A stretch of 12,700 nt of DNA from a virus, in the UHGV virus genome UHGV-0853290. The stretch is one strand, 5' to 3'. Below, in pieces: positions 1-12,383 of the stretch (its first letter is position 1; the number at the start of each line of letters is the position of its first letter). The position numbers and the translations under genes were made by a program. The notes below the pieces were generated by a model, which saw only the letters and a list, made by a program, of their open reading frames with translations, ran no database searches and had not been told where the DNA came from.

Positions 1-18
1 ATAGATGGAAATTTCACA

Positions 19-180
19 ATGAAAAAAGCATTTGCTGCACTGTTCGTTTTGTTGTCTCTGGTAGCTTCAACTCAGGCCTTTGCCGGTCGTTGCCAGCACG
101 ACAGCGACACTGCTGCTGACGGCTCCCGCTGCGGTGGGCGTTCTGCGGATTCCCGTCCGGGTGGCGGTGGCATTCGTTAA
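19..180 (+). CDS. small exported protein (53 aa), function unknown
   Basis: ATG 19-21 to TAA 178-180, below the ORF-track size cutoff. N-terminus MKKAFAALFVLLSLVASTQAFA looks like a Sec signal peptide; mature part is Gly/Cys-rich. Weak SD (GGAA). Confidence 0.4.
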   Translation: MKKAFAALFVLLSLVASTQAFAGRCQHDSDTAADGSRCGGRSADSRPGGGGIR

Positions 181-202
181 AAACAAGGCCGCGAAAGCGG
201 CC
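178..202 (-). terminator. rho-independent terminator downstream of the antirepressor gene
   Basis: Hairpin GGCCGCGAAAGCGGCC (187-202) followed on the minus strand by TTGTTTTTA (rc of 178-186). No U-run in the plus orientation. Confidence 0.55.
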
Positions 203-253
203 TGTGACATGTCACGATAGTTCCGTTTTGCACATCCCTGTGCCGCCGTTCTG

Positions 254-964
254 TCAGAAGAACCCTGCCTTGTCGTTGATGTACTCCGCGTGCGTCTGGA
301 TATCACGCAGGCATTTGCTCACACCGACGATGTAGCAGAACATGGTGGTCAGTTCCGCCGCCGCGCCCGATACGTCGTGCCCGTCTTCCTGTAACTGGTT
401 AAGCAGATTCATCAGCAGTGAGTTCTCCGTCAGGCCGAGAACACCAGACGGCGAGTGAATCAGGCTGCGGTAGCCTGGCTTCAGCGGGGCGCTGTAGGTT
501 TTGTTCTCTATCTTCATTGCCTGCAGCACTGCTGACGCCGTGGCGTTGGCTACCTGGTCGGCAACCATCTTTATACGTTCTTCCTGCGGGAGCGAGTTTT
601 TAATGTAACTTCCGGTGCGGCGGATCTGAGGAAGAACCTCACCTGTAACCCATTTACGAAAGCGGTAGGGGATAGTGCCTGGTGTCACCGCATCGCGGCA
701 GCGGAGGATCAGTGTGTAGAGGCCTGACTCGGAGATGATGTTGATCTCTTTTACTCGGCTGTCAAAAATTGCACGATGTTCATGCCCTATGTTGAACATA
801 GACCTTTCATCATCATCCAGTTTTTCAAGTGCTTGGGTGACGTTTTGGATACGCAGCGCACTACAAACGTCTTGGGCTACAAACCATGGTTGGCCATCGA
901 TAATGATGGAACGGATAGGGTTAACAGATTCAAATTTGAAGATGGCAGTTTGAGCATTAGCCAT
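254..964 (-). CDS. phage antirepressor, Bro-N N-terminal domain plus KilAC/ANT C-terminal domain
   Basis: ORF 254-979; preferred start is the ATG at 964 (MANAQTAIFKF...) preceded by GGAGAT. N-terminus matches the Bro-N pattern (PWFVAQDVCSAL, ISESGLYTLILR, KWVTGEVLPQIRRTGSY). Confidence 0.85.
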   Translation of the reverse strand: MANAQTAIFKFESVNPIRSIIIDGQPWFVAQDVCSALRIQNVTQALEKLDDDERSMFNIGHEHRAIFDSRVKEINIISESGLYTLILRCRDAVTPGTIPYRFRKWVTGEVLPQIRRTGSYIKNSLPQEERIKMVADQVANATASAVLQAMKIENKTYSAPLKPGYRSLIHSPSGVLGLTENSLLMNLLNQLQEDGHDVSGAAAELTTMFCYIVGVSKCLRDIQTHAEYINDKAGFF

Positions 965-1120
965 GGTGGTTATCTCCACTTAGTGATTTTAATCACCACC
1001 GCAACGCCAATTACTGGTGGTGAACTGGACAAGGTTGGCGTACCGGCCTAAGTGGTACCGGCGTCCTTTCGGACCCCTGCCCAGCCCACCATAATTCGGA
1101 TATAGCTGTGCTTAACGCAT

Positions 1121-1143
1121 AAAAAAACCACGTCTGGCGTGGT
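1121..1143 (-). terminator. minus-strand intrinsic terminator or attenuator upstream of the antirepressor gene
   Basis: Stem ACCACG / CGTGGT (1127-1132 / 1138-1143) with a 5-nt loop, followed on the minus strand by U7 (rc of A7 at 1121-1127). Confidence 0.4.
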
Positions 1144-1233
1144 ATGCGCCACTTAGTAACTCGGGACGCCAATCCCGGCACTGGATTTTGCCAGTGCCTG
1201 ATTACTATGGCACAAGAGGAGTGCGATGTAAAT

Positions 1234-1248
1234 TTACCTCAAAGGTAA
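1234..1248. promoter_or_regulatory. box A palindrome TTACC-N5-GGTAA (copy 1)
   Basis: TTACCtcaaaGGTAA, perfect half-sites; same motif at 2755, 5365, 12558, 12620 and near-perfect at 1359 and 7539. Confidence 0.5.
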
Positions 1249-1373: not shown

Positions 1374-1385
1374 TTGGGGGTGCCC

Positions 1386-1901
1386 ATGAACACGAAGAGA
1401 GTTGCAGCGATGAGGCATAGACGCTTGACCTTGAAAAAGTCTGAAAAAGAAAAAGAGAAAAAGATGGTGATTGAAGCAGCCGCTTATGCTGCTGCCATAG
1501 CAACTGCCAATGCCATCAGGATTCATGATGAAGAAGTTGAGCAAAAATACCCGGTTATGTTCATCACTGAATACGACCAGCATGAGGCATTGTTAAAAAT
1601 CCGGGGCACATCTTTTGAAGGAATCTTGGCAGATAAGCTTCATCGTGCCTCATGTCAAACGAATATAATGCGACCTTACGAGTCAAGGCTAATCGAAACT
1701 GGACGCTCCAAGGATAAGCAGCAATTAGTTGAGATGATAAAGCGGTATTATAAGCCATCTTTTAAGCCTACAGCGTCACATGAGGTTGTAATGCGAGAAG
1801 TACCAAAGATGTCTGTTGAAAAATCGCATGCAATCTCGCGCAGGATGTTTGCACGCACTGCTGAAGATATGGCTCAGGAGCTCTACGACGATGCCGAATA
1901 A
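1386..1901 (+). CDS. hypothetical protein (171 aa), candidate antitoxin/partner of the downstream toxin-like gene
   Basis: ATG 1386 preceded by GGGGG; ORF open to TAA 1899-1901. Basic N-terminus (KRVAAMRHRRLTLKKSEKEKEKK) and acidic C-terminus (ELYDDAE). No family recognised. Its 3' end overlaps the start of the next gene by 11 nt. Confidence 0.6.
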   Translation: MNTKRVAAMRHRRLTLKKSEKEKEKKMVIEAAAYAAAIATANAIRIHDEEVEQKYPVMFITEYDQHEALLKIRGTSFEGILADKLHRASCQTNIMRPYESRLIETGRSKDKQQLVEMIKRYYKPSFKPTASHEVVMREVPKMSVEKSHAISRRMFARTAEDMAQELYDDAE

Positions 1902-2397
1902 ATTCCAGGGGTTGGTTCACCCTGGAATTTTTGGGAAGGACCCTGAGCTAATACCTATCAAAAACGCGTTCATAGATCACTGGCGCTACGGTCATCATAA
2001 GGATTTCGGAAAGGACACTCTGTTTCGGGATCCACCGAAAGAGATGCTGGAATATCACATACGCCACGTTCACGTAAACATCGGAAACTATACTGACAAG
2101 TTTGGTGAGAGCGGTACGGAACAATGCTGGAAAAACTGGGCATCCGGGAAGAAAGACAAGACCACCAACAAGCATAAAAAAATACCAACCAGTGATGTAT
2201 ATGTGATTTATCTTGTAACGTCTGAGCGACATGCGTTTCTTCTGGATTACTGGGATGAGCCAGCACACAAAAAAGTAGAAATTGACGAACAGAAACAAAA
2301 ACTTCTTGTCGAGTGTGACAGAATTTTGCGGCTGAAAAAGTTAGAATCCATGCCGCGCGATGCAAGTTTGTGGGACCCAGAATTTTACGACTGTTAA
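1891..2397 (+). CDS. YafO-family type II toxin-like protein (168 aa)
   Basis: ATG 1891 with AGGAG 10 nt upstream, overlapping the upstream stop. Motifs FGKDTLFRD, HIRHVHVN and VYVIYLVTSERHAFLLDYWDEPAHKK line up in order with my recollection of E. coli YafO (FGRDALYDD, HIHLAN, HLVYCQGAFDEQAWLLIAILKPEPHK). Confidence 0.55.
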   Translation: MPNKFQGLVHPGIFGKDPELIPIKNAFIDHWRYGHHKDFGKDTLFRDPPKEMLEYHIRHVHVNIGNYTDKFGESGTEQCWKNWASGKKDKTTNKHKKIPTSDVYVIYLVTSERHAFLLDYWDEPAHKKVEIDEQKQKLLVECDRILRLKKLESMPRDASLWDPEFYDC

Positions 2398-2873: not shown

Positions 2874-4271
2874 ATGACGGTCTCAACCGAAGTTGACCAC
2901 AACGAATACACAGGTAACGGCGTTACGACATCGTTTCCGTATACCTTCAGGATTTTCCAGAAATCTGATCTGGTAGTACAAGTGGTTGACCTTGATGAAA
3001 ATATCACTGTTCTTGCTCTTGATACTGATTACGCAGTTACCGGGGCGGGAGGGTATAACGGTGGTAATGTAATTCTGTCGAAGGCGTTGGCTAACGGTTA
3101 TCAGATTTCTATATCTCGAGAGCTGCCGGTTACGCAGGAAACCGATCTGCGCAATCAAGGCAAGTTCTTTGCAGAGGTACATGAGGATGCGTTTGATAAG
3201 CTAACGATGTTGATCCAGCAGGTTAGAAGTTGGTTTAGCCTAGCGCTTCGCAAGCCATCATTCGTGGCAAACTATTATGATGCTCTGGGTAATTACATTC
3301 GCAATCTTCGTGACCCGTCACGACCTCAGGATGCGGCCACCAAGAATTATGTCGACTCTCTGGCAAATATTAACCTGTCGAGAACGTTGAGAACTCCAGA
3401 GGCAATACCTGAACTGCCTGGTGTAGAGCTGAGAAAAAATAAAATTGTAGCAATGGATAATGATGGCAATCCTATTATGGTATTGCCTGAATCAGGATCT
3501 GCTGCAGATGTTCTCATAGAGCTTGCAAAGCCAACTGGCGGCAGCCTGATTGGTTTACCTAACGGAACAGTGAGTGATGCAATTAATTATGTTACTCCAG
3601 AGATGTTTGGGGCAATAGGAGATGGTACTTTTCACGCTCTTTCTGAGCGTTTTGCGACACTGGCAGATGCGCAGGTTGTATACCCTCACGCCACATCACT
3701 TAGTCAGTCAATAGACTGGGCAGCAATGCAATCAGCTTTAAATTCTGGTTCTCAGACTCTGGATGTGAGTAAAGGAAATTATGTAGTAAACAGTAATTTA
3801 ACGGGAAACAAATCACTTCACTGGATCGGTGGAAGTGGTAAAAAGGTACAGATGATTGACGGATCTTTTATTCTTTTATCCGGGAGTCTTACTGCATTAC
3901 CTAAAATAACTGGCGGCATTAATCGCGTATCAAGGACGTTTACATTTGCATCTGTACCAGACTTATCAGCTGGCGATTCTTTTGTTGTATACAATCCGAC
4001 AGACTATAGTTGGTCTCATCACCGTGCCTACTACCGTGAAGGGGAGTTTTTCAAGGTTTTCAGCGCAACAGGAACCACGGTTAGCATCTACGGATTACCC
4101 TCGGATAATTATGTCGCCTCTGCGCTGGACGTTTATAAACTAAACGGAATTCGTGTTGTTCTTGATAATCTACACGTTGAAGGGGAAGACACATTAGATA
4201 GCGCACCTATAATTATCCGTTTCGGTCTTGATGTGGCGGTTAATAATTTTACCGGTAAAAAAATCAAATAA
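2874..4271 (+). CDS. tailspike/tail fiber protein, N-terminal fragment (T7 gp17-like N-terminal domain plus start of beta-helix), truncated by a frameshift
   Basis: ATG 2874 with GGAG 7 nt upstream. N-terminal pattern YTGNGVTTSFPYTF and NYIRNLRDPSRPQDAATKNYVDSL recalls the T7 tail-fibre N-terminal domain. Frame ends at TAA 4269-4271 just after an A7 run (4257-4263). Confidence 0.7.
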   Translation: MTVSTEVDHNEYTGNGVTTSFPYTFRIFQKSDLVVQVVDLDENITVLALDTDYAVTGAGGYNGGNVILSKALANGYQISISRELPVTQETDLRNQGKFFAEVHEDAFDKLTMLIQQVRSWFSLALRKPSFVANYYDALGNYIRNLRDPSRPQDAATKNYVDSLANINLSRTLRTPEAIPELPGVELRKNKIVAMDNDGNPIMVLPESGSAADVLIELAKPTGGSLIGLPNGTVSDAINYVTPEMFGAIGDGTFHALSERFATLADAQVVYPHATSLSQSIDWAAMQSALNSGSQTLDVSKGNYVVNSNLTGNKSLHWIGGSGKKVQMIDGSFILLSGSLTALPKITGGINRVSRTFTFASVPDLSAGDSFVVYNPTDYSWSHHRAYYREGEFFKVFSATGTTVSIYGLPSDNYVASALDVYKLNGIRVVLDNLHVEGEDTLDSAPIIIRFGLDVAVNNFTGKKIK

Positions 4272-5355
4272 TTATCAAATAGAGTTTGACCGTTGTTTTG
4301 GGGTTAATGTAAATACAGGTTCAGTAATAAACAATTCGCAAGGTTCTGATGAAGAATACGGGATTGTTATTTCAAACTGTACCGATGTTGTGGTTAATGG
4401 CGGTTCACATTACGCTAATCGCCACTGCATTGCAATTGGCGGACGAGGGGAAGTCTGCTCAATCCCTAACCGCAATATAAAAATTATTGGGGCTACTCTG
4501 CGTAACAATAGTGATGGGATTGGTGCTGCTGATATCCACGGAAACTCTGATAACATAGAATACTCCAACTGTGAATTATCATCAGCTAATATGGCTGGTC
4601 GTAACGTTAGGTACAAAAACTGCCGTATATTTCAAAGGCTGCGAGCAGACGGTTTATGTATTTACGGCTCTGAAATTGTCGGCGGGGTGTATGAAGTATC
4701 TAACTGCACTCTTATCACCCAGGGTGATCTCGACGCTTTTGGTGCTATAGCGTTGCAGGCTGCTAAGCCTATGAGAGAGAAATTCTCTCTCATAGTACGC
4801 AACATTACTGTTACTGGCGGTAATGGTGGCCCAAATGCAAAGTTAGTACATATCTTCTCTGCTGTTGGGGAAACACTCCCGATGGATGTTGATATCAGAG
4901 GAGTTCGCAATGAACTAACGGCGAGTATCGCAGTTCTTTACGCAAGACATACAACCAGCGCGGCAACCACGTTTATTTCCAATGGTTTCATTGTTGATGA
5001 TGTATACGGCCCACAAAATATGTATCTGGTGTATCCAAGTGGCACAGGTATTTCATCAATACCAACAAGGGAAATGGCACAAACAGGAAGCGTCACGATA
5101 ACATCGGCAGCAAATGCATTTAATACAGCTAGTGGCACTACGTCATTCAGGTACGGATACTCAAAGAAACCTAAATGCTCGTTTGGTGTTTCTTCGCCAA
5201 CAGGTTCGGCATTTACTAATCCTGGTCAGCCACCAGTGGCTCTCGCGTATAAGATATCAGGCACGGGTATCATACCAGCTATTACTGCGGCATCGGCATT
5301 CACAGCAGGTGTGGATGTTGATGTGAGCTGGAGCGTGAAAATATCTGACATTTAA
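4231..5355 (+). CDS. tailspike C-terminal fragment (right-handed beta-helix, depolymerase-like), in the +1 frame
   Basis: Frame open from 4228 to TAA 5353-5355; repeated Gly/Asn/Cys-rich beta-helix-like turns (VVNGGSHYANRHCIAIGG, NCTLITQG). Removing one A from the run at 4257-4263 fuses it to 2874-4271. Confidence 0.65.
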   Translation: MWRLIILPVKKSNNYQIEFDRCFGVNVNTGSVINNSQGSDEEYGIVISNCTDVVVNGGSHYANRHCIAIGGRGEVCSIPNRNIKIIGATLRNNSDGIGAADIHGNSDNIEYSNCELSSANMAGRNVRYKNCRIFQRLRADGLCIYGSEIVGGVYEVSNCTLITQGDLDAFGAIALQAAKPMREKFSLIVRNITVTGGNGGPNAKLVHIFSAVGETLPMDVDIRGVRNELTASIAVLYARHTTSAATTFISNGFIVDDVYGPQNMYLVYPSGTGISSIPTREMAQTGSVTITSAANAFNTASGTTSFRYGYSKKPKCSFGVSSPTGSAFTNPGQPPVALAYKISGTGIIPAITAASAFTAGVDVDVSWSVKISDI

Positions 5356-5364
5356 ATTTATCGT

Positions 5365-5379
5365 TTACCTTAATGGTAA
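5365..5379. promoter_or_regulatory. box A palindrome TTACC-N5-GGTAA (copy 3)
   Basis: TTACCttaatGGTAA, 10 nt after the tailspike stop codon. Confidence 0.5.
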
Positions 5380-5409
5380 AATTTATAACGGCTAACTTAA
5401 AATTTTAAT

Positions 5410-5422
5410 CCATATATGGTTT
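5410..5422 (+). promoter_or_regulatory. box B CCATATATGGTTT (copy 3)
   Basis: Lies 30 nt downstream of box A copy 3; followed 6 nt later by the -10-like hexamer TATGAT (5429-5434). Confidence 0.45.
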
Positions 5423-5483
5423 ATTGTGTATGATGAACTCACCAACTAAGGGGGTTCATTATGCACGGTAAACGGTGGTTTAT

Positions 5484-5888
5484 ATGTCAGCTCAGCTAAC
5501 CAGTGAGTCTTTAAATCAGTGGCTTAGCATGGGTTCTCTGGCTGCGGTTATCGCTGGGGTTCCTCCCGAGGTAGCTCTTGGTGCTTTATCAGGTGCGGTA
5601 ATATTTATTACCTCAGCCGTTGAGTATCCAATACGCCGCCGGGTTCTGCTGTCGATGCTCAGCTTTCTCTGCGGGCTTCTCTTCTACAAACCAACTGCAT
5701 CAATCCTTATCGGCTTAGCCAGCCTGATCCCAACTATCACGCAGGATTCATTCGAGAAAGGGATCGTCTTCTCTGCTGGCGCGTTCGTGTCGGCAATCGT
5801 CGCAGTACGTATTGGTATCTGGCTCTATCACCGTTCAGACAATCCACGCGATTTAATCCCGGGGAGAAAAGACGATGGTAACGCATGA
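5484..5888 (+). CDS. putative holin (three predicted transmembrane segments, charged C-terminus)
   Basis: ATG 5484 with GGTGG 5 nt upstream (GTG at 5475 is an alternative). Hydrophobic stretches LAAVIAGVPPEVALGALSGAVIFI, LLSMLSFLCGLLFY, IVFSAGAFVSAIVAVRIGIWLY. First gene of the lysis cluster. Confidence 0.55.
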   Translation: MSAQLTSESLNQWLSMGSLAAVIAGVPPEVALGALSGAVIFITSAVEYPIRRRVLLSMLSFLCGLLFYKPTASILIGLASLIPTITQDSFEKGIVFSAGAFVSAIVAVRIGIWLYHRSDNPRDLIPGRKDDGNA

Positions 5889-6182
5889 CCTTTTTTTACT
5901 ATCACCAATGCAGTTATTTGTACTGGCATAGCAATTCGCGTTGTCACTTTCCAGCGTAATGGATCTCAACACCGAAGATGGGGTGGGTGGATTGCTTATT
6001 TCCTGATTGTTGCTGCGGCCAGTATTCCTGTTCGTGTCGTTTATGCAATCTGGTTACGCACGCCAATGGCTGTGGATTTATCTGAGGTCATTATCAACGC
6101 TGTCATGCTTGCTGCGGTTATTAAAACGCGCGGTAACGTCGTTCAGATTTTCAAAATAACGAGGTCTAAACATGGAGATTAA
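5875..6182 (+). pseudogene. second small membrane protein of the lysis cluster (holin/antiholin-like), out of frame with its start codon
   Basis: ATG 5875 with GGGGAG 8 nt upstream gives only 18 codons. A hydrophobic frame with no start codon runs from 5889 to TAA 6180-6182. The two frames meet at a T7 run (5891-5897). Confidence 0.4.
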
Positions 6183-6798
6183 ACAATTCCAGCGAGCTGC
6201 TGGTATTAGCGAGGCGCTGGCCGCTCGCTGGTTCTCGCATATAACTTCTGCGATGAAAGAGTTTGGTATCAGCAAAGCAGAAGATCAGGCAATGTTTATT
6301 GCTCAAGTCGGGCATGAGTCTGGAGGCTTCACCCGGTTGCAGGAAAATTTCAACTACAGCGTCAGCGGACTGGCTAACTTCGTTCGGGCTGGGCGTCTCA
6401 CTCAGGGACAGGCTAATGCACTTGGTCGCCGTGCTGGTGAACCACCATTGCCACTCGAGCGCCAGAGAGCGATCGCCAATCTGGTGTACAGCAAACGCAT
6501 GGGGAACAATGCCTCTAGTGATGGCTGGAATTACCGTGGCCGCGGACTTATCCAGATTACCGGTTTGAATAACTATCGTGATTGCGGAAACGGCCTGAAA
6601 GTGGACCTGCTGGAGAATCCTGAACTGCTGGCGCAGGACGAATATGCGGCTCGTAGCGCGGCGTGGTTTTTCTCCAGCAAAGGCTGCATGAAGTATTCCG
6701 GAGATATTGTACGTGTAACTCTGATTATCAATGGTGGCAGGAACGGCATCGACGACAGGCGGGCGCGTTACTGTGCTGCTCGTAAGGCGCTGTTATGA
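6172..6798 (+). CDS. endolysin, glycoside hydrolase family 19 (chitinase-like) type
   Basis: ATG 6172 with GAGG 7 nt upstream. Motifs GHESGGF and [12 protein letters not shown] are as I recall for GH19 phage endolysins. Stop overlaps the next start (ATGA at 6795-6798). Confidence 0.75.
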
Positions 6799-6995
6799 TC
6801 TGGGCATTCGTAAAAGCATATTGGAAACAGTTGGTTATCATGGCGATCCTTGCTGTTCTGGTCATGTCAGGAGTTGTAGCCTGGAATGCACACGGCAGTC
6901 GTCAGTACGACGCCGGGTATGCGCAGGCGAAAGAAGACCGCAAAGCCGAAGAAGAAAAAGTTACGTCAGCACTACGAACAGGAGAAAGCGACTAA
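6795..6995 (+). CDS. i-spanin (Rz-like) N-terminal fragment with transmembrane anchor
   Basis: [30 protein letters not shown] is a single TMD; frame terminates at TAA 6993-6995, while the rest of an Rz-like protein continues in the +1 frame. Confidence 0.55.
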
Positions 6996-7278
6996 TGAAC
7001 GTGAAGCGCAGCAGAGGATCGATCAGGCGCGCAGCGATGCTCTTGATGCTGCCGCTCGCGCTGGCAGGTTGCAGCAACAGCTCGTTGCCATCCGTGAGCA
7101 GCTCAGGCAGTATAACGCCACTGTCGGCGCTGGGACGTCAGCCGCAGACACCGGGGTTTTGCTTGCCGACGTGCTCAGCAAATCTCTCGAGCGAAACAGA
7201 CAACTGGCAGAGTACGCTGACCGGGCATCCGAAGCCGGACGAGTCTGTGAAAAGCAGTACGATTCGCTGACCAGGTGA
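6886..7278 (+). CDS. i-spanin (Rz-like) C-terminal fragment (periplasmic coiled-coil part)
   Basis: Frame open 6886-7278; Rz-like sequence from about 6961 ([40 protein letters not shown] ... CEKQYDSLTR). Junction with the TMD frame is in the A-rich stretch GAAGAAGAAAAAG (6948-6960). Confidence 0.55.
   Translation: MHTAVVSTTPGMRRRKKTAKPKKKKLRQHYEQEKATNEREAQQRIDQARSDALDAAARAGRLQQQLVAIREQLRQYNATVGAGTSAADTGVLLADVLSKSLERNRQLAEYADRASEAGRVCEKQYDSLTR
6995..7270 (+). CDS. o-spanin (Rz1-like) outer-membrane lipoprotein, embedded in the +1 frame of Rz
   Basis: ATG 6995 with GGAG 10 nt upstream. Signal peptide with lipobox (MLLMLPLALAGCSN), Pro/Ser-rich mature part. Confidence 0.6.
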   Translation: MNVKRSRGSIRRAAMLLMLPLALAGCSNSSLPSVSSSGSITPLSALGRQPQTPGFCLPTCSANLSSETDNWQSTLTGHPKPDESVKSSTIR

Positions 7279-7289
7279 CATGGCATTTT

Positions 7290-7570
7290 TCATGGTACTG
7301 ATTTCCGGTGACGGTATATAAAACGGTACGGTAAAAATCTGTTTTTGGAAAGTTGTTACCAGTCAATTGGTTATGCTTACCGTAAATAATTGAGTGGGAA
7401 TGATTAACAGCTAACTCATAGCAACTCATTCCTATTCAGATACTAATTTAACCCTCTGTTTTTACAGAGGGTTTTTGTTTTTATGTATTCATTTCTATTC
7501 ACTCTACACCATATTTTTCTGCGGTACAGGTGACGGTATTACCTTAAAGGTATACTCTCATACCGTCATG
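7290..7570. other. attP-like region with clustered integrase arm-type repeats
   Basis: GGTGACGGTAT at 7307-7317 and again at 7529-7539; inverted copy ATACCGTCA at 7560-7568; further ACGGTA/CGGTAA units at 7323-7334 and TTACCGTAA at 7377-7385. Sits directly upstream of the integrase gene. Confidence 0.4.
7451..7482 (+). terminator. rho-independent terminator of the lysis operon
   Basis: Stem ACCCTCTG / CAGAGGGT with loop TTTTTA, followed by TTTTTGTTTTT. Confidence 0.8.
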
Positions 7571-8851
7571 AAAATGGTTTCTATACGGGTGAATTGTGCT
7601 TACCGATACAAAATTAAAAACCTCAAGCCGCAGGACAAACTGTACAAGGTCTCCGATCGTGACGGGCTGTATGTAGCTGTGCTTACGTCAGGCACGGTCT
7701 CGTTTCGCTATGACTACCGTATCAACGGTCGCCGCGAAACACTGGTAATCGGGCAGTATGGGCGTGACGGTATCAGCCTGGCAGAAGCGCGAGAAGAACT
7801 GATTGCTGCAAAGAAGCTGCTTAAAGCAGGCCAGTCACCGGCTGCGGCTAAACGTGACGGTATCAAAAAGATTCGTGGTGCAGAGACGTTTACGGTACAT
7901 ACCGACAGTTATATGAAACGCGTCATCCTGGCTGACAGTACCCGCGCAATGAAGCAGGCGGTGATCGACCGTGACATACTTCCAGTTCTTGGCAACAAAA
8001 TGATGACTGAAATTACCACATCGATGGTTCGTGATTTGTGTGACCGGATTGTCGAACGCGGTGGTCGGGCAACAGCAGTACAGGCAAGGGAGATCATCAG
8101 CAGCGTATACCGTCACGCCAATGACCGTGGTCATGGTTTGTTTAATCCTGCGGCTGACATTAAACCTTCGTCTATCGCCATATTTAAACCAAGAGAGCGA
8201 ACACTGACACCAGAAGAAATTGGCCTGTTCTTCCGCAAGCTGGATGCCATTGGTGCTATGGGCACTATGAAAATGGCTTTAAAGCTGGTGCTTATCACTA
8301 TGGTTCGTAAAGGCGAATTCACCAACGCAACGTGGGATGAAATAGATTTTAAAAAATGGACATGGACAATTCCTTCAGACCGCATGAAGGGAAGCCGGGC
8401 GCACGTTATTTACCTGCCTAAACAGGCTCAGGATATATTGGTCGGGTTGCAGATGTGCGCTGGTGGAAGTGAATATCTGGTTCCTGGTCGTTACAATTTC
8501 CGGAAGACATTATCTAATGCCGCGCTGAACTCTCTGATCGACAGAACGGTGAAAATAATAAATGAAGATGGTGAGCATATTCAGGGCTTCACCGTACACG
8601 ATATGCGCCGTACAGCCAGTACATTGTTGCATGAGGCTGGTTATCCTTCAGACTGGATTGAAAAGGCTCTGGCACATGAGCAGAAAGGTGTGCGCGCCGT
8701 ATATAACAAAGCGGAATACGCCAGACAGCGCGCCTACATGTTGCAGCAGTGGGCCGATATGATTGATTCCTGGATTGACGGGGAGCATACGGATCTGATT
8801 CCGTTCTCCCCGTCGAAGTTTGAGAAGTGGATGGCGGAGAATAACGTTTAA
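7568..8851 (+). CDS. int: tyrosine-type phage integrase
   Basis: Frame 7475-8851; preferred start ATG 7568 (7574 also possible), since 7475 is a TTG inside the terminator U-run. N-terminal arm-binding pattern (LKPQDKLYKVSDRDGLYVAV...FRYDYRINGRRE) and C-terminal HDMRRTAST ... VYNKAEY. Confidence 0.85.
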   Translation: MKMVSIRVNCAYRYKIKNLKPQDKLYKVSDRDGLYVAVLTSGTVSFRYDYRINGRRETLVIGQYGRDGISLAEAREELIAAKKLLKAGQSPAAAKRDGIKKIRGAETFTVHTDSYMKRVILADSTRAMKQAVIDRDILPVLGNKMMTEITTSMVRDLCDRIVERGGRATAVQAREIISSVYRHANDRGHGLFNPAADIKPSSIAIFKPRERTLTPEEIGLFFRKLDAIGAMGTMKMALKLVLITMVRKGEFTNATWDEIDFKKWTWTIPSDRMKGSRAHVIYLPKQAQDILVGLQMCAGGSEYLVPGRYNFRKTLSNAALNSLIDRTVKIINEDGEHIQGFTVHDMRRTASTLLHEAGYPSDWIEKALAHEQKGVRAVYNKAEYARQRAYMLQQWADMIDSWIDGEHTDLIPFSPSKFEKWMAENNV

Positions 8852-9042
8852 TTATTCTGCTGATTTTCTTCCATCTCGGCTTCTGCTGCCAGTGATTCAA
8901 TTTTATCTGTGAATATTGCTGACAGTGTTGCAAATTCAGCATCAGTGACAGCGGGAATTGGAACAAACCTGATCCCGCTGTGTGCAAGCATGTTTGCAGT
9001 TTCAAGGCATTTCCTTAAATCTGCTGGTGATGCCCTGTTCAT
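8848..9042 (-). CDS. hypothetical protein (64 aa), coupled to the methyltransferase gene
   Basis: ATG 9042 overlaps the methyltransferase stop (ATGA); GGGAG upstream. Acidic C-terminus. Its stop overlaps the integrase stop on the opposite strand. Confidence 0.45.
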   Translation of the reverse strand: MNRASPADLRKCLETANMLAHSGIRFVPIPAVTDAEFATLSAIFTDKIESLAAEAEMEENQQNN

Positions 9043-9689
9043 GCTGCACGCTCCCGCCCCTGGTTGTCTGTTGGTGACAGCGGAGCATTGCTGAATGCAT
9101 TTGTTAATCTGGCAATATCCAACGCGTATCCAGGGTGTAGTTGCACTGCCTGGTCTTCGCACTGATTACCCCAAACATCGAAACCATGAGACGACTGGCG
9201 GGCGAACAGTTCAATGCGAGAAACATCGCCTAACAATTGCACAAGTTTTTCACGAACGACATCTGGTTTTCTTGAATGCTCAAGCCGCGGTGCGGTAAAT
9301 GACTGAACGATCCCTGCATTAATGCGCGGAGGTAGTTTTCCCTTTACTGCAAACAGGCAATCTTCACTATTGGCGCGAGTCATGTGTCCCATACCCATAA
9401 CCAGTTTATCTGGTTGTCGACTACCACATTTTATCCACGTGAAGCCCTTCATGGTCATCAGACGGAATCCCCAGGCTTCAACAACTTTTAGCGCTTCGAG
9501 TGGTTGTGTTGGCACCCACCACATGGCCAACAGACAGTTTTCATCGGCCAAATCCCACACAGGAAGGCGGCAGATATCCAGCACACTCATAACCGGATAT
9601 TTAAAACCGGCACCGCGATTACCATCTGCGGCTTTATCCCGGTATACCCAGGGTGGATCTGCATAGATTAGCGTGTATTTCTTAGTCAT
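9039..9689 (-). CDS. DNA N6-adenine methyltransferase, MT-A70 family
   Basis: ATG 9689 with GGGTGG upstream; N-terminal IYADPPW motif (DPPW) typical of the MT-A70 family. Confidence 0.8.
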   Translation of the reverse strand: MTKKYTLIYADPPWVYRDKAADGNRGAGFKYPVMSVLDICRLPVWDLADENCLLAMWWVPTQPLEALKVVEAWGFRLMTMKGFTWIKCGSRQPDKLVMGMGHMTRANSEDCLFAVKGKLPPRINAGIVQSFTAPRLEHSRKPDVVREKLVQLLGDVSRIELFARQSSHGFDVWGNQCEDQAVQLHPGYALDIARLTNAFSNAPLSPTDNQGRERAA

Positions 9690-9981
9690 AAACCACCCCG
9701 CAACATCCTATGCCGCTATAGTCGCCACGGCGAAGGACGTTACCTTTTGTGATACATTGGTCCCTGCGAACCGCGATCCTTGCACGCTCAACATCACCAG
9801 AAGCAACATCCATACACTGAAGCCAAAGGTGGGCGGCAATGCGGAACTGCCCTTTTTTCTCTCTTTCAATTGCGCGTTTTTCGATCTCTATCGCCGCAGG
9901 AGTAACGGCAACAACCTTTGAAGGGCTGCGCATTGAAACCTTGTTCATGTGATATTTTTCAAGTCGGCTTAACTTTCTCAC
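9682..9981 (-). CDS. hypothetical small protein, possibly a PerC/ANR-like regulator
   Basis: GTG 9981 with GAGAGGG upstream (ATG 9948 is an alternative). Stop overlaps the methyltransferase start by 8 nt. Family assignment is a weak recollection only (AAHLWLQCMDVA). Confidence 0.45.
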   Translation of the reverse strand: MRKLSRLEKYHMNKVSMRSPSKVVAVTPAAIEIEKRAIEREKKGQFRIAAHLWLQCMDVASGDVERARIAVRRDQCITKGNVLRRGDYSGIGCCGVVYD

Positions 9982-10090
9982 TTAATCCAACCCTCTCAGA
10001 AAATTAATGCCAGCAGATAAAGCCATGCTGAAACAGAGGCCAGGAATAAGTACCATCCTGACCATTTGCTCCAGTGCCTTAGCAGCACAC

Positions 10091-10339
10091 TCATGCAGCG
10101 TTGCTCACAGGACGATATACACGTTGCTGAACCGGAGGCTTTTTACCCTGGAACACTGCCGGGCTTGCTGCCTGACGTTCATCAAGCCAACGCTCAATTT
10201 CGTCACGGTTCCATGCGCAGCGTTTGTCAGTGATATACCAGCGTTTAGGAAATTCACCTGCGCGCTCCATACGGTCGATAGTGCTCCATGACAGTGGCAC
10301 CACCGCCAGGAGTTCCTTCTTACCTAATGCACCTTTCAT
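10091..10339 (-). CDS. AlpA-family HTH protein (excisionase/transcriptional regulator-like)
   Basis: ATG 10339 with GAGAGG upstream. LSWSTIDRMERAGEFPKRWYITDKRCAWNRDEIERWL matches the AlpA/Xis-type winged-helix pattern. Confidence 0.6.
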   Translation of the reverse strand: MKGALGKKELLAVVPLSWSTIDRMERAGEFPKRWYITDKRCAWNRDEIERWLDERQAASPAVFQGKKPPVQQRVYRPVSNAA

Positions 10340-10388
10340 AAATACCTCTCTTGGTTGCAGTGCGGCGCGCGTGGCGCCGCGGTGGTGG

Positions 10389-11270
10389 TTACATAGATGT
10401 TTCGTTTAATTCTTCCCGACGAACGCTGTAAACGTCGGTGGCTTTTGCCAGCAGTTCGTCATCATCTGAAAGTTTTTGTGCAATGTATTTGTAAGCCTTA
10501 TCCAGTTCGGAGACAGTGCTGTAATTCATCGCTGCGCTGGTAAAGGCCATCAGCATTTCTTCTGGATCACGGCTATCCGCTTTACGCGTTTGCTCATCAG
10601 GCTTTTTCACTGTTTTAGCGTTGATCAGACTATTCATTCCCGCAGCCGTAGTTGTTTGCGGAGTAATGTCTCGTTCAACGCGCGGTGCCGTTTCCTGTAA
10701 TTCGTCAGGGGTGTAAACACCGAGAAGTACATCAGGAGCGTGCAGGCGAGCCCATCGTTTCGTGCAAAGATAGGCAAGCTGCTGGCGCGGATCCTGTTCC
10801 CACAATGGAGAGTTACGCACTCCGGCTTGCGCCATACTGATGGTAAGCTCACGGGGTTCTGCTTCTCCTTTAAGAACTGCTGACACAGTTACCGTCAGAT
10901 TCGGTGATTTATCTGTATTGCCGTTAACATTCGACCAGTCACCGCTCCAGCGATAATTCAGGCGTGTCGCTAGCAGGCTGGAAGAAGATACGACCGCGTT
11001 TACCAACTGTGCTTCGTAGCCTAACGTTCCGTTTACCACATGCGTTTTCTGCGCCACGGCGAAAGGGTTCATTCCCCACTGTGCCGCCTGCATGGTCACC
11101 GCCAGACAATCGGCAGGTTTGCCTTCAAGATGTTTCGGTACAGTCGCTTTGCTTTGTGACATCAACTCTGCGAAACGCACCAGTTGATTCATGCCCTCCG
11201 GGCTGAAGATTGCCGCAGCAGTACCTACAGTTGCGCCTGGTTGTGATGTGATTGCGATATCATTGCTCAT
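10389..11270 (-). CDS. RecT/Redbeta-family single-strand annealing protein
   Basis: ATG 11270 overlaps the upstream stop (ATGA). AAQWGMNPFAVAQKTHVVNG resembles the Redbeta/RecT core (lambda Bet, from memory, has ANQYGLNPW). Confidence 0.75.
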   Translation of the reverse strand: MSNDIAITSQPGATVGTAAAIFSPEGMNQLVRFAELMSQSKATVPKHLEGKPADCLAVTMQAAQWGMNPFAVAQKTHVVNGTLGYEAQLVNAVVSSSSLLATRLNYRWSGDWSNVNGNTDKSPNLTVTVSAVLKGEAEPRELTISMAQAGVRNSPLWEQDPRQQLAYLCTKRWARLHAPDVLLGVYTPDELQETAPRVERDITPQTTTAAGMNSLINAKTVKKPDEQTRKADSRDPEEMLMAFTSAAMNYSTVSELDKAYKYIAQKLSDDDELLAKATDVYSVRREELNETSM

Positions 11271-12106
11271 ACGTACATATCCTGTTTACGTGCCCAGTCA
11301 GGGCGTTTAATAATTTCCACTCCGCCCCACTCATCGTTGATGCGGCATTCGTGATAGGTATTCAGATCCCGGCGGAACAGAGCGTGCCCGGCATCGACAT
11401 CCGGAGCATCCAGCTCGAACACGCGTACCGGATATCGACCACAATCAATGCTTTCGCTCACGGCAAGAAAGAAAAAACCATGCGGCTGACCAGTAACCCT
11501 CATTGCGCCTTCGCGATACATTGCGTCCTGCACGTGGTAGCGGAATTCCTCGATGTGGCGTGCAAAACGGTCCATATCTGCAACCTTTTTCACGTCGACG
11601 ATCACGTTGTGCTCGTTCAGCCATTTGTCTGGACGAATGCGGCACAACTCACCAGTCTCTTCATCGTTCCAGTACATTGATGCTTCGCAGTAACCAGGTG
11701 CTTCCAGCATCCAGCGTGCCGCCGGGTGAGCCATTGCGCTATCACGCATCAGCTCCAGTTTCCGCCACTGCTCGGCATCAAGTACCGTAATCCCCATATC
11801 CGCTACATCACGAAGAAATGCTTCTTCGTCAGCTTTACCTTGTTTCGTCCGACGATCGAACTTTGGTGAAACAATGAAGCGTTTGTCGAATTCTCCAGGT
11901 TCCAGAAGCAGACAGTGCAGAGCAGTACCCATGTCCAGTGCAGATTTCTTCTCTTCGTCTTCTGGTGCTGCCTGAACCCATTTAAGAAGCGCCGGATTCT
12001 TGGCAACCATGTCCAGTTGCGACTTACTCACGCCGTCACCGGCGTGGTAGTCATCGTTGCTGATGTCGAATAAATTCCCGGTTTCATGCCGCGTCCCTCT
12101 GTCCAT
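11267..12106 (-). CDS. PD-(D/E)xK exonuclease (RecE/YqaJ/exonuclease VIII-like partner of RecT)
   Basis: ATG 12106 (TTG 12109 alternative). Motifs GTALHCLLLE, RIRPD, IVDVKKV, YHVQDAMY fit a RecB-like nuclease fold; directly upstream of and coupled to the annealing protein. Confidence 0.7.
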   Translation of the reverse strand: MDRGTRHETGNLFDISNDDYHAGDGVSKSQLDMVAKNPALLKWVQAAPEDEEKKSALDMGTALHCLLLEPGEFDKRFIVSPKFDRRTKQGKADEEAFLRDVADMGITVLDAEQWRKLELMRDSAMAHPAARWMLEAPGYCEASMYWNDEETGELCRIRPDKWLNEHNVIVDVKKVADMDRFARHIEEFRYHVQDAMYREGAMRVTGQPHGFFFLAVSESIDCGRYPVRVFELDAPDVDAGHALFRRDLNTYHECRINDEWGGVEIIKRPDWARKQDMYV

Positions 12107-12383
12107 CAAGCTGATCCGCCAGATCCCAGCGGGCGATAATTGCCATTGCCTCGCGCCGGTAGGAATCCATCAGTTCTTCGAACTCAGGGCTGTCTTTAGC
12201 TGCTTCCAGCACTTCCTGGCGAACGCCTTTGCCTGTTACAACGTCGAAAGCTGAGGCCAGTTGATGAAGCCGGATACTCTCAATCAGTTCGACTTGTCGG
12301 TCATATAGCTGTTCTGACAGGCGGTAGTCCTTGTCGAATGCCAGCATGATTTTTTGAAGATTTTTCTGCTGATTAACGTTCAT
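12084..12383 (-). CDS. hypothetical protein (99 aa)
   Basis: ATG 12383 with GGGAGGG upstream (ATG 12398 alternative); overlaps the exonuclease start by 23 nt. No family recognised. Confidence 0.5.
   Translation of the reverse strand: MNVNQQKNLQKIMLAFDKDYRLSEQLYDRQVELIESIRLHQLASAFDVVTGKGVRQEVLEAAKDSPEFEELMDSYRREAMAIIARWDLADQLDGQRDAA

What the first reader, a model, noticed from the sequence alone, without database searches (positions are those of the whole stretch)
5861..6182. Second lysis-cluster membrane protein is out of frame with its start codon at a U UUU UUA heptamer
An ATG at 5875 with an ideal Shine-Dalgarno (GGGGAG, 8 nt spacing) opens a frame that stops after 18 codons. Immediately after the holin stop, a start-less frame runs 5889-6182 and encodes a three-TMD-like protein (FFTITNAVICTGIAIRVV..., WGGWIAYFLIVAAASIPVRVVYAIWL, VIINAVMLAAVI). 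The frames overlap at a T7 run where the translated frame reads CTT TTT TTA, that is the heptamer U UUU UUA, a canonical -1 slippery site. A -1 shift there would yield a roughly 100-aa membrane protein (MVTHDLFFTITNAV...). This is either a one-base deletion or error (T8 to T7) or a frameshift-controlled holin/antiholin-like gene, which would be unusual for a lysis cassette.
Basis: partly seen in the sequence, partly recalled or inferred. Interest (0 to 1): 0.5.

Follow-up and report, generated by a model that had tools for sequence, protein, structure and literature searches.

The report
One-base deletion in phage holin gene
The second membrane-protein gene of this epsilon15-like phage lysis cluster is an ordinary, widely conserved holin gene that has lost one T just after a run of seven Ts. 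This is most likely an assembly error or a very recent null mutation, not a programmed ribosomal frameshift.

Summary
ATG 5875, with GGGGAG 8 nt upstream, opens a frame that stops after 18 codons (TAG 5929-5931). The start-less frame 5889-6182 encodes the rest of a three-helix Phage_holin_3_7 protein (PF05449, E 3e-27). The ATG frame reads CTT TTT TTA across a T7 run.

The recoding interpretation is not supported. None of the related genes examined shares the frame break: 31 phages, every E. coli genome checked out of 420 with a match, 5 IMG/VR contigs and 2 metagenome contigs. All those inspected have an intact 309-nt gene. The E. coli KFu019 allele matches the window at 308 of 308 bases, apart from one extra T.

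That T is not in the run. Intact alleles read TTTTTTTACTTATC and the window reads TTTTTTTAC-TATC. So T7 is the normal in-frame length, and the lesion is TT to T at position 5900. Epsilon15 and phiV10 have CTGCTTTTAC/G there, so the heptamer is not conserved. No downstream structure stands out, and U_UUU_UUA is not among the efficient E. coli shift motifs.

Two other assemblies of what looks like the same sample carry the intact gene. They differ from the window only by single-base indels near homopolymers. The window also has one-base indels in Rz (+A, 6963) and in the tailspike (A7, 4257-4263).

Verdict: ordinary frameshift lesion, low interest.

The parts
5484..5888 (+). First lysis-cluster membrane protein gene (134 aa, Phage_holin_8 family). 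Its stop, TGA 5886-5888, overlaps the start region of the next gene.
   Evidence: Pfam PF16931 at 42.5 bits and PHROG 198 'holin'. The 405-nt gene is annotated in all relatives. tblastn covers the full length at 94.8% identity.
5861..5866 (+). Shine-Dalgarno GGGGAG, 8 nt upstream of ATG 5875.
   Evidence: Read from the sequence. Invariant in the four-sequence alignment A1.
5875..5931 (+). Native start and first 8 codons of the Phage_holin_3_7 gene. After the deletion at 5900 the frame is wrong and ends at TAG 5929-5931.
   Evidence: Translation. The start is the one annotated in TL-2011b, epsilon15, phiV10 and E. coli prophages.
5891..5897 (+). T7 run (CTT TTT TTA, coding Leu-Phe-Leu). This is the normal length in intact alleles of this clade.
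   Evidence: The gene alignment shows T7 in L001, L004 and L005, all with intact 309-nt genes. Five IMG/VR and two metagenome contigs have T7 followed by ACTTATC.
5900..5900 (+). Site of the lesion: a single T where every relative examined has two bases (TT, or TC in some alleles).
   Evidence: Alignments. L004 is 308/308 identical apart from this gap.
5901..6182 (+). Remainder of the holin gene (codons 10-102 and the stop), in the reading frame that is open from 5889.
   Evidence: Translation. It is identical to residues 10-102 of WP_000256098.1. Pfam PF05449 at 94.7 bits.
6172..6798 (+). GH19-type endolysin, intact.
   Evidence: Pfam PF00182. tblastn 207/209 aa at 94.7% identity.
6795..7278 (+). 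Rz (i-spanin, DUF2514) gene, 484 nt where relatives have 483. An extra A at 6963 stops the frame at 6993-6995 after 66 codons. Rz1 (6995-7270) lies downstream of the insertion and is open.
   Evidence: Alignment and three-frame translation. Among 147 E. coli genomes with a match to the 96-nt junction none is 100% identical; in all 12 listed rows the record is one base shorter than the query.
4257..4263 (+). A7 run that splits the tailspike gene into 2874-4271 and 4228-5355. It is context for judging sequence quality or phage decay.
   Evidence: E. coli Z1323CEC0003 has A6 and a single 826-aa ORF at 99.5% identity.

Best explanation
This is the ordinary second holin-family gene of an epsilon15/phiV10-type (Uetakevirus-like) lysis cassette. 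The cassette order is Phage_holin_8 gene, Phage_holin_3_7 gene, GH19 endolysin, Rz/Rz1.

The gene carries a single-base deletion in codon 9 (CTT to CT-, window 5900). The native start therefore reads into a stop after 18 codons, and the rest of the gene sits start-less in the neighbouring frame. The T7 run and the U UUU UUA heptamer are just the normal coding sequence for Leu-Phe-Leu at the start of helix 1, and they occur in intact alleles. No recoding signal is present.

The most likely cause is a single-base indel error in the consensus of an indel-prone data set. On this reading the real phage has the intact gene WP_000256098.1, translated normally by coupling to the upstream gene.

What is shown: the deletion, its position, its uniqueness and the family assignment. 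What is inferred: that it is an artefact rather than a real mutation.
For: 1. The repaired gene is the common allele.
- E. coli KFu019 is 308/308 identical apart from the missing T.
- The repaired protein occurs on at least 1000 contigs. Neither possible slippage product is on record anywhere.

2. The deleted form was found nowhere else.
- 0 of 31 phage records.
- 0 of 420 E. coli genomes at 100% identity for the 90-nt junction.
- All 60 records sampled evenly down the ranking are consistent with the intact gene. In 58 the matched stretch is exactly one base longer than the aligned part of the query; two have a 92-base span and were checked and carry intact 309-nt genes.
- No exact match to the deleted junction in IMG/VR.
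- GTDB representative genomes gave no match to either the intact or the deleted form, so that scan is uninformative.
- In JGI metagenomes only intact forms were found.

3. Source tracing.
- The window's exact holin8, endolysin, integrase and BRO-N proteins occur only in NCBI assembly GCA_001292545.1 and in the Logan assembly of run ERR975268. The one exception is a further genome that shares BRO-N.
- Those assemblies are identical to the window over about 11 kb. Both carry TT at 5900 and lack the A at 6963.

4. The differences between these assemblies look like sequencing error.
- Apart from one adjacent AT/TA swap, every difference is a single-base indel private to one assembly.
- The window has -T at 5900 and +A at 6963. 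The Logan contig has A5 where the window has A6 at 11472-11477, which breaks the Logan copy of the RecE-like gene. The NCBI contig has 8-9 insertions between 7136 and 7327 that break its Rz.
- 6 of these 10 indel sites lie within 4 nt of a homopolymer of 4 or more bases, against a 14% background.
- The window's +A (AAAAAGTT[A]C) has the same form as the NCBI contig's AAAAG[A]C and TTTTTC[T]A insertions.
Against: - The deletion is not inside a homopolymer.
- The Logan contig ERR975268_787 ends exactly at ...TTTTTTTACT and the next contig begins TTATC. This could mean the reads hold two continuations at this very base, that is, a real polymorphism.
- The tailspike A7 frameshift is reproduced in all three assemblies. 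The phage lineage may therefore be truly defective and accumulating real frameshifts.
- Both of the window's private indels hit lysis genes. The chance of that is roughly 0.03 if indels fell at random over the coding sequence.
- I had no reads and do not know the sequencing platform.
Confidence: 0.57

Rival explanations
1. The deletion is a genuine, very recent loss-of-function mutation. The window would then come from a defective or decaying phage copy, possibly one of two related phages in the same sample. Its holin_3_7 gene is a pseudogene, along with frameshifted Rz and tailspike genes. Any holin made would come only from accidental events. These are -1 ribosomal slippage on U UUU UUA, or RNA polymerase adding a U in the T7 run, two bases upstream of the lesion. 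Either would give a full-length 102-aa protein with one or two substitutions (L9T, or L8F+L9T).
For: - Three genes in 12.7 kb are broken by one-base indels. The other genes with a homologue to compare are intact.
- The tailspike A7 is shared by three assemblies.
- The Logan contig ends exactly at the indel position.
- The sample holds two related phages. Two different BRO-N regions occur in GCA_001292545.1, on contigs 937 and 1958.
- Loss of lysis genes in resident prophages is a familiar outcome (established knowledge).
Against: - There are no substitutions alongside three indel differences between otherwise identical sequences. That is not what mutation accumulation normally gives.
- The other assemblies of the same sample have their own private indels that are evidently errors.
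- No other genome carries the allele.
- U_UU.U_UU.A is not in the efficient class in E. coli, and the U_UUA tetramer is only 1.8-3.6 times background even with a pseudoknot (PMC4066793). Any rescue would be well under 1%.
Confidence: 0.38
2. Programmed -1 ribosomal frameshifting (or programmed transcriptional slippage) at the T7 run. On this reading the gene is meant to be read in two frames, giving an 18-aa peptide and a roughly 100-aa holin/antiholin in a set ratio that tunes lysis timing.
For: - A formally correct X XXY YYZ heptamer (U UUU UUA) sits in the ATG frame, and the -1 frame is open for 94 more codons.
- The shifted product would be a complete family member.
Against: - The arrangement is not conserved. 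Every related gene examined is a single in-frame ORF, including alleles identical at 308/308 bases.
- The heptamer is present in those intact genes, where slipping would only truncate the protein. It is replaced by CTGCTTTTA/G in epsilon15 and phiV10.
- No downstream hairpin or pseudoknot stands out: -9.3 kcal/mol with z -0.74 over 52 nt, and z -1.27 over 92 nt.
- The only SD-like element lies about 26 nt upstream of the heptamer and serves the start codon.
- The motif is in the weak class in E. coli.
- A second and a third one-base indel in neighbouring genes show that the lesion is not special to this site.
Confidence: 0.02
3. Read-through fusion. Because of the deletion, the holin_3_7 body is now in frame with the upstream holin_8 gene, separated only by TGA 5886-5888. 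Read-through of that stop would give a 233-aa fusion of the two membrane proteins.
For: The two frames coincide (both codon phases equal 0 mod 3) with a single TGA between them. UGA is the leakiest stop codon in E. coli (established knowledge).
Against: - The in-frame relation exists only in this window and is a by-product of the deletion. In all relatives examined the genes overlap by 14 nt in different frames.
- There is no selenocysteine or read-through signal to point to, and no such fusion protein turned up among the cluster members listed.
Confidence: 0.01

Closest known systems
Phage holin family protein WP_000256098.1 (same as Escherichia phage TL-2011b gp51, YP_007002002.1). Orthologues are epsilon15 p04 (NP_848232.1) and phiV10 p28 (YP_512282.1). 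Pfam PF05449 Phage_holin_3_7.
   Same: - Same position in the cassette: after the Phage_holin_8 gene, overlapping it by 14 nt, and before the GH19 endolysin.
- Same SD and ATG.
- 308/308 identical bases to the KFu019 copy of WP_000256098.1.
- Same three hydrophobic segments.
   Different: One T is missing in codon 9, so the window has no intact ORF for it.
Bacterial programmed -1 frameshift sites (dnaX A AAA AAG; IS911/IS3 A AAA AAG or A AAA AAA; phage tail-chaperone G/GT).
   Same: A heptamer of the X XXY YYZ form in the upstream frame, with an open -1 frame behind it.
   Different: - No conservation of the two-frame layout.
- No 3' hairpin or pseudoknot, and no SD-like stimulator 10-14 nt upstream.
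- The motif is U_UU.U_UU.A. Efficient E. coli motifs are V_VV.A_AA.R and H_HH.U_UU.Y (PMC4066793).
- The 'zero-frame' product is an 18-aa fragment with no counterpart elsewhere.
'Savior indel' with low-level compensatory frameshifting, for example herpes simplex thymidine kinase G-run mutants (reviewed in PMC5009743).
   Same: If the deletion is real, a slippery homopolymer next to a one-base indel could let a trace of near-wild-type protein be made.
   Different: - In the TK case the indel lies in the run itself, and the leaky level has a demonstrated selective role.
- Here the indel lies 3 nt after the run.
- Nothing shows that the allele exists in nature or that leakiness matters.
Frameshifted lysis genes in defective prophages, and homopolymer-associated indel errors in draft assemblies.
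   Same: Single-base indels at or next to homopolymers break otherwise conserved genes (holin, Rz, tailspike). Sister assemblies show different private indels.
   Different: Nothing distinctive. This is the class the finding falls into.

Membership tests
Phage_holin_3_7 (Pfam PF05449) / PHROG 217 holin | Sequence match to the family profile above the curated threshold. | tested here: met
   The repaired 102-aa translation scores 94.7 bits against a 25.4 cut-off, covering profile positions 2-80 of 80. PHROG 217 gives E 1.5e-34. The matched residues 12-94 all lie in the start-less frame 5889-6182.
Phage_holin_3_7 (Pfam PF05449) / PHROG 217 holin | Small membrane protein with three predicted transmembrane segments. 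| tested here: met
   Kyte-Doolittle analysis finds hydrophobic segments at about residues 5-25, 37-61 and 65-86.
Phage_holin_3_7 (Pfam PF05449) / PHROG 217 holin | An intact ORF with its own start codon. | tested here: not met
   The frame from ATG 5875 stops at 5929-5931. The body frame has no ATG/GTG/TTG before 6066.
Phage_holin_3_7 (Pfam PF05449) / PHROG 217 holin | Demonstrated hole-forming or lysis-timing activity. | not testable with these tools
   Family names are annotations. I found no experimental paper on this protein in the library.
Epsilon15/phiV10-type lysis cassette | Gene order holin_8-like, holin_3_7-like, GH19 endolysin, Rz with embedded Rz1, followed by attP/integrase. | tested here: met
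   tblastn and annotation comparison with epsilon15, phiV10, TL-2011b, ZX5 and E. coli prophages.
Programmed -1 ribosomal frameshift site | Slippery heptamer X XXY YYZ in the incoming frame. | tested here: met
   T TTT TTA at 5892-5898 in the ATG 5875 frame.
Programmed -1 ribosomal frameshift site | Stimulatory element: a 3' hairpin or pseudoknot 5-9 nt downstream, or an SD-like sequence about 10-14 nt upstream. | tested here: not met
   Folding of 5899-5950 gives -9.3 kcal/mol with z -0.74, and 5899-5990 gives z -1.27. The only SD-like sequence (5861-5866) lies about 26 nt upstream. Pseudoknots were not modelled explicitly.
Programmed -1 ribosomal frameshift site | Conservation of the two-frame gene layout and of the shift site among relatives. 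| tested here: not met
   All relatives examined have one in-frame ORF. The heptamer is absent from epsilon15, phiV10 and most E. coli alleles.
Programmed -1 ribosomal frameshift site | Measurable frameshifting producing a trans-frame protein. | not testable with these tools
   This needs a reporter assay or mass spectrometry. Literature places U_UU.U_UU.A outside the efficient E. coli class (PMC4066793).

The most novel reading that the evidence does not exclude
The single-T allele is real, and the T7 run two bases upstream acts as an accidental suppressor. Rare -1 ribosomal slippage on U UUU UUA, or RNA polymerase adding one U, would make a full-length holin that differs from wild type only at residues 8-9. 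The phage copy would then be a leaky rather than a null holin mutant, with delayed or weakened lysis. That would be a bacterial-phage analogue of 'savior indel plus compensatory frameshifting'.
Probability: 0.05. Interest if true: 0.35.

Novelty: not a real feature. Interest (0 to 1): 0.07.

Why it matters
It matters mainly as a caution. A textbook-looking slippery heptamer next to a frame break is not evidence of recoding. Here the heptamer is ordinary coding sequence in thousands of intact copies, and the break is a private one-base loss three bases further on.

In practice this window should be annotated with a frameshifted or repaired holin gene. The same applies to Rz and the tailspike. 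The underlying assembly should be treated as indel-prone.

If the deletion turned out to be real, it would only document a defective phage copy with inactivated lysis genes, which is common.

Tried and rejected
1. T8-to-T7 contraction. Rejected because intact alleles have T7.

2. Programmed -1 frameshift. Rejected on conservation, lack of a stimulator and motif class.

3. Alternative start for the body frame. There is no ATG/GTG/TTG before 6066. The only candidates are AUC/AUU/AUA codons with no SD at a usable distance. Not pursued further.

4. Search for the deleted junction elsewhere.
- The exact 25-mer was searched in IMG/VR.
- A variable-gap pattern was searched in GTDB representatives (no match of either form), in IMG/VR and in metagenomes.
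- The 90-mer was searched against 5,426 E. coli genomes.
- No genome or contig carried the deleted form; wherever a match was found it was the intact form.

5. Look-ups of the truncated Rz products, the tailspike N-terminal ORF and Rz1 as exact proteins, to find the window's own source contig. Nothing is on record.

6. Literature search for the run or assembly accession, to learn the sequencing platform. No relevant paper was found.

7. Two E. coli hits with a 92-nt span, checked as possible further frameshifts. Both have intact 309-nt genes.

8. The 134-aa members listed in the protein cluster. They are copies of the upstream holin_8 gene and are not relevant.

9. De Bruijn-graph reasoning about why the Logan contigs end at 5900 and 6991. 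This was suggestive of heterogeneity in the reads, but I could not make it conclusive without knowing how those contigs were trimmed.

Full report
**1. What is in the sequence**

- GGGGAG (5861-5866) lies 8 nt before ATG 5875.
- That frame runs ATG GTA ACG CAT GAC CTT TTT TTA CTA ... GCA and stops at TAG 5929-5931 after 18 sense codons.
- The upstream gene (5484-5888) ends at TGA 5886-5888.
- The same phase then stays open from 5889 to TAA 6180-6182 (98 codons). It has no ATG/GTG/TTG until 6066.
- The two frames overlap on a T7 run (5891-5897). In the ATG frame the heptamer T TTT TTA lies at 5892-5898.

T7/A7 runs are not unusual here: 6 are found against 3.65 +/- 2.4 expected.

**2. What the gene is**

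The window is a mosaic relative of the epsilon15/phiV10 group of temperate podophages (Uetakevirus) and of the many E. coli prophages of that type.

In all relatives examined the cassette is as follows:
- a 405-nt membrane-protein gene;
- a 309-nt 'holin' gene that overlaps it by 14 nt;
- a 630-nt GH19 endolysin gene;
- Rz with Rz1 embedded in it.

In the window the first gene matches Pfam Phage_holin_8 (PF16931). The repaired second gene matches Phage_holin_3_7 (PF05449, 94.7 bits, profile 2-80 of 80) and PHROG 217 'holin'. It has three hydrophobic segments. The start-less frame is therefore a real gene body and the ATG at 5875 is its real start.

**3. Where the frame breaks**

I aligned the window gene with seven annotated orthologues. 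There is exactly one gap.
- Intact alleles of the closest clade (phage TL-2011b, E. coli KFu019 and 2015C-4498) read ATG GTA ACG CAT GAC CTT TTT TTA CTT ATC ACC.
- The window reads ... CTT TTT TTA C-T ATC ACC.

The T7 run is therefore the normal, in-frame length. The missing base is one T of the next codon (window 5900). The KFu019 copy is identical to the window at all 308 remaining bases.

Epsilon15 (CTG CTT TTA CTC), phiV10 (CTG CTT TTG CTT) and most E. coli alleles have no heptamer at all.

**4. Is the broken form found anywhere else?**

No.
- The 31 phage records that match span one base more than the aligned part of the query where I checked the coordinates, and an intact holin gene is annotated in most of them; five have no annotation and two list only a single holin feature.
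- Of 5,426 complete E. coli genomes, 420 match the 90-nt junction and none at 100%.
- I took 60 records at even steps down the ranking. In 58 the match is exactly one base longer than the aligned part of the query. The other two have a 92-base span and proved to have intact 309-nt genes.
- The exact deleted junction is absent from IMG/VR.
- A pattern allowing either form found five IMG/VR contigs and two metagenome contigs, all intact. The same pattern found no match of either form in GTDB representative genomes, so that scan is uninformative.
- The repaired protein is on record on at least 1000 contigs. The two conceivable slippage products are not on record.

**5. Test of the recoding idea**

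Besides the lack of conservation, three further points count against it.
- The RNA downstream of the heptamer folds no better than shuffled sequence. For 5899-5950 the energy is -9.3 kcal/mol with z -0.74, and for 5899-5990 z is -1.27.
- The only SD-like element lies about 26 nt upstream and belongs to the start codon.
- The systematic study of all heptamers in E. coli (PMC4066793) lists V_VV.A_AA.R, H_HH.U_UU.Y, U_UU.A_AA.G, C_CCC_CCC and A_AA.G_GG.G as the efficient motifs. U_UU.U_UU.A is not among them. The U_UUA tetramer was only 1.8-3.6 times background even with a pseudoknot.

The heptamer is 'canonical' for eukaryotic systems rather than for this host. In the intact alleles that carry it, a -1 slip would only give a truncated peptide.

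**6. Where the window comes from, and what that says about the deletion**

Exact-sequence look-ups place the window's proteins in very few assemblies.
- The holin_8 protein and the endolysin occur only in NCBI assembly GCA_001292545.1 (contig CYGL01000937.1) and in the Logan assembly of run ERR975268.
- The integrase occurs only in ERR975268.
- The BRO-N protein occurs in GCA_001292545.1 (contig CYGL01001958.1) and in one other genome.

At the DNA level the window matches these contigs as follows.

| Window stretch | Contig | Difference |
|---|---|---|
| 1-1238 | CYGL01001958.1 | none |
| 1200-2717 | CYGL01000937.1 | none |
| 2986-7135 | CYGL01000937.1 | two single-base indels |
| 3442-5900 | Logan ERR975268_787 | none |
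| 5900-6991 | Logan ERR975268_440 | one base |
| 7381-12070 | Logan ERR975268_127 | one base |

The window is therefore another assembly path through what appears to be the same sample, or a virtually identical isolate. Both other assemblies have TT at 5900, so their holin gene is intact.

Apart from one adjacent AT/TA swap in the NCBI contig, every difference between the three versions is a single-base indel private to one version.
- The window lacks the T at 5900.
- The window has an extra A at 6963.
- The Logan contig has A5 where the window has A6 (11472-11477). This splits the Logan copy of the RecE-like gene, while the window's copy is intact.
- The NCBI contig has 8-9 insertions between 7136 and 7327 that wreck its own Rz.

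Six of these ten indel sites lie within 4 nt of a homopolymer of four or more bases, against a 14% background. The window's extra A (AAAAAGTT[A]C) has the same form as the NCBI contig's AAAAG[A]C and TTTTTC[T]A. In each case a spurious copy of the run's base appears just after the run.

Indels without substitutions, each private to one assembly and each beside a homopolymer, are the signature of sequencing or consensus error rather than of divergence. This is my main reason for ranking 'artefact' first.

**7. Why a real mutation is still a serious rival**

- The Logan contig ERR975268_787 ends exactly at ...TTTTTTTACT and the next contig begins TTATC.... This is what a branch in the read graph at that very base would give.
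- The sample contains two related phages, since there are two BRO-N versions in one assembly.
- The tailspike gene is split by A7 in all three assemblies, whereas E. coli Z1323CEC0003 has A6 and a single 826-aa ORF. The lineage may therefore be truly defective.
- Both of the window's private indels fall in lysis genes.

If the allele is real it is a null or nearly null allele. The only route to protein would be accidental slippage at the T7 run two bases upstream. That would give a full-length protein with L9T (ribosomal slippage) or L8F+L9T (an extra U in the mRNA). The published motif data suggest a level well under 1%. The review PMC5009743 describes such 'savior indel plus compensatory frameshifting' cases. 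Nothing here shows that this is one.

**8. Comparison with known systems, and verdict**

The gene is a member of PF05449 by sequence and by cassette position, but it fails the trivial criterion of an intact ORF. It fails two of the three testable criteria of a programmed -1 site (stimulator and conservation) and meets only the heptamer criterion.

My probabilities are:
- about 0.57 for an assembly or sequencing indel;
- about 0.38 for a real recent deletion in a defective phage copy;
- about 0.02 for programmed recoding;
- about 0.01 for a read-through fusion with the upstream gene. That last possibility exists only because the deletion happens to put the two genes in one frame.

Either of the two leading explanations makes the finding ordinary. 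Interest is low.

Noticed in passing
window 6795-7278 (extra A at 6963): The Rz (i-spanin, DUF2514) gene is 484 nt where relatives have 483. GTTCGT has become GTTACGT, so the frame stops at 6993-6995 after 66 codons. The rest of Rz continues in the next frame, and Rz1 (6995-7270) is open. None of the 147 E. coli genomes with a match to this junction, nor the two sister assemblies, has the extra A.
   Followed up: yes
window 2874-5355 (A7 run at 4257-4263): The tailspike is split into a 465-aa ORF (TSP_Ig-like N-terminus, ending FTGKKIK*) and a 375-aa ORF (pectate-lyase-like). E. coli Z1323CEC0003 and Z1323CEC0011 match at 99.5% over one base less than the query; in Z1323CEC0003, which was aligned, the difference is A6 there and the gene is one 826-aa ORF. 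The A7 form is shared by CYGL01000937.1 and Logan ERR975268_787. It is therefore either real in this lineage (a defective phage, or a homopolymer on/off switch) or a systematic homopolymer miscall.
   Followed up: partly
window 11472-11477, compared with L022 position 4091: The Logan contig of ERR975268 has A5 where the window has A6, inside the PD-(D/E)XK / RecE-like gene (window 11267-12109, minus strand). Here the window's gene is intact and the Logan copy is split into 64-aa and 203-aa ORFs.
   Followed up: partly
L015 (CYGL01000937.1) 7458-7667, equivalent to window 7136-7338: The NCBI contig carries 8-9 private one-base insertions and an AT/TA swap within 200 nt. These break its Rz/Rz1 region, while the window agrees with all other relatives there. 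This shows that assemblies of this sample are indel-prone.
   Followed up: partly
L019 end (window 5900); L021 (window 5900-6991); L022 start (window 7381): Logan contigs of run ERR975268 break exactly at the holin indel site. No Logan contig that I retrieved covers window 6992-7380 (Rz 3' part, Rz1, attP region). This may reflect heterogeneity in the reads (two related phages, or integrated and excised forms) or low coverage.
   Followed up: partly
window 1-1238 and 230-1199, compared with L024 and L015: Assembly GCA_001292545.1 contains two different versions of the BRO-N antirepressor region. Contig 1958 is identical to the window and contig 937 is divergent. The sample therefore holds two related epsilon15-like phages, and the window may be one path, or a chimeric path, through them.
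   Followed up: partly
window 5886-5888 and 5889-6182: Because of the deletion, the holin_3_7 body is in the same frame as the upstream holin_8 gene, separated only by TGA. Read-through would give a 233-aa fusion. In the relatives examined the genes overlap by 14 nt in different frames.
   Followed up: no
window 7279-7600, compared with L017 (E. coli KFu019): In KFu019 the prophage ends right after Rz, next to host yfgI, as expected if attP lies between Rz and int as annotated in epsilon15. In the window, and in E. coli GPEC1186, Rz is followed directly by the integrase gene. That is the unintegrated (phage or circular) arrangement, or a different attachment layout.
   Followed up: no
window 1374-2397: A YafO-family toxin gene (1891-2397, 98.8% identical to WP_000932553.1) with a small upstream ORF sits between the antirepressor region and the tailspike gene. 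It is a toxin-antitoxin-like moron also present in E. coli GPEC1186.
   Followed up: no
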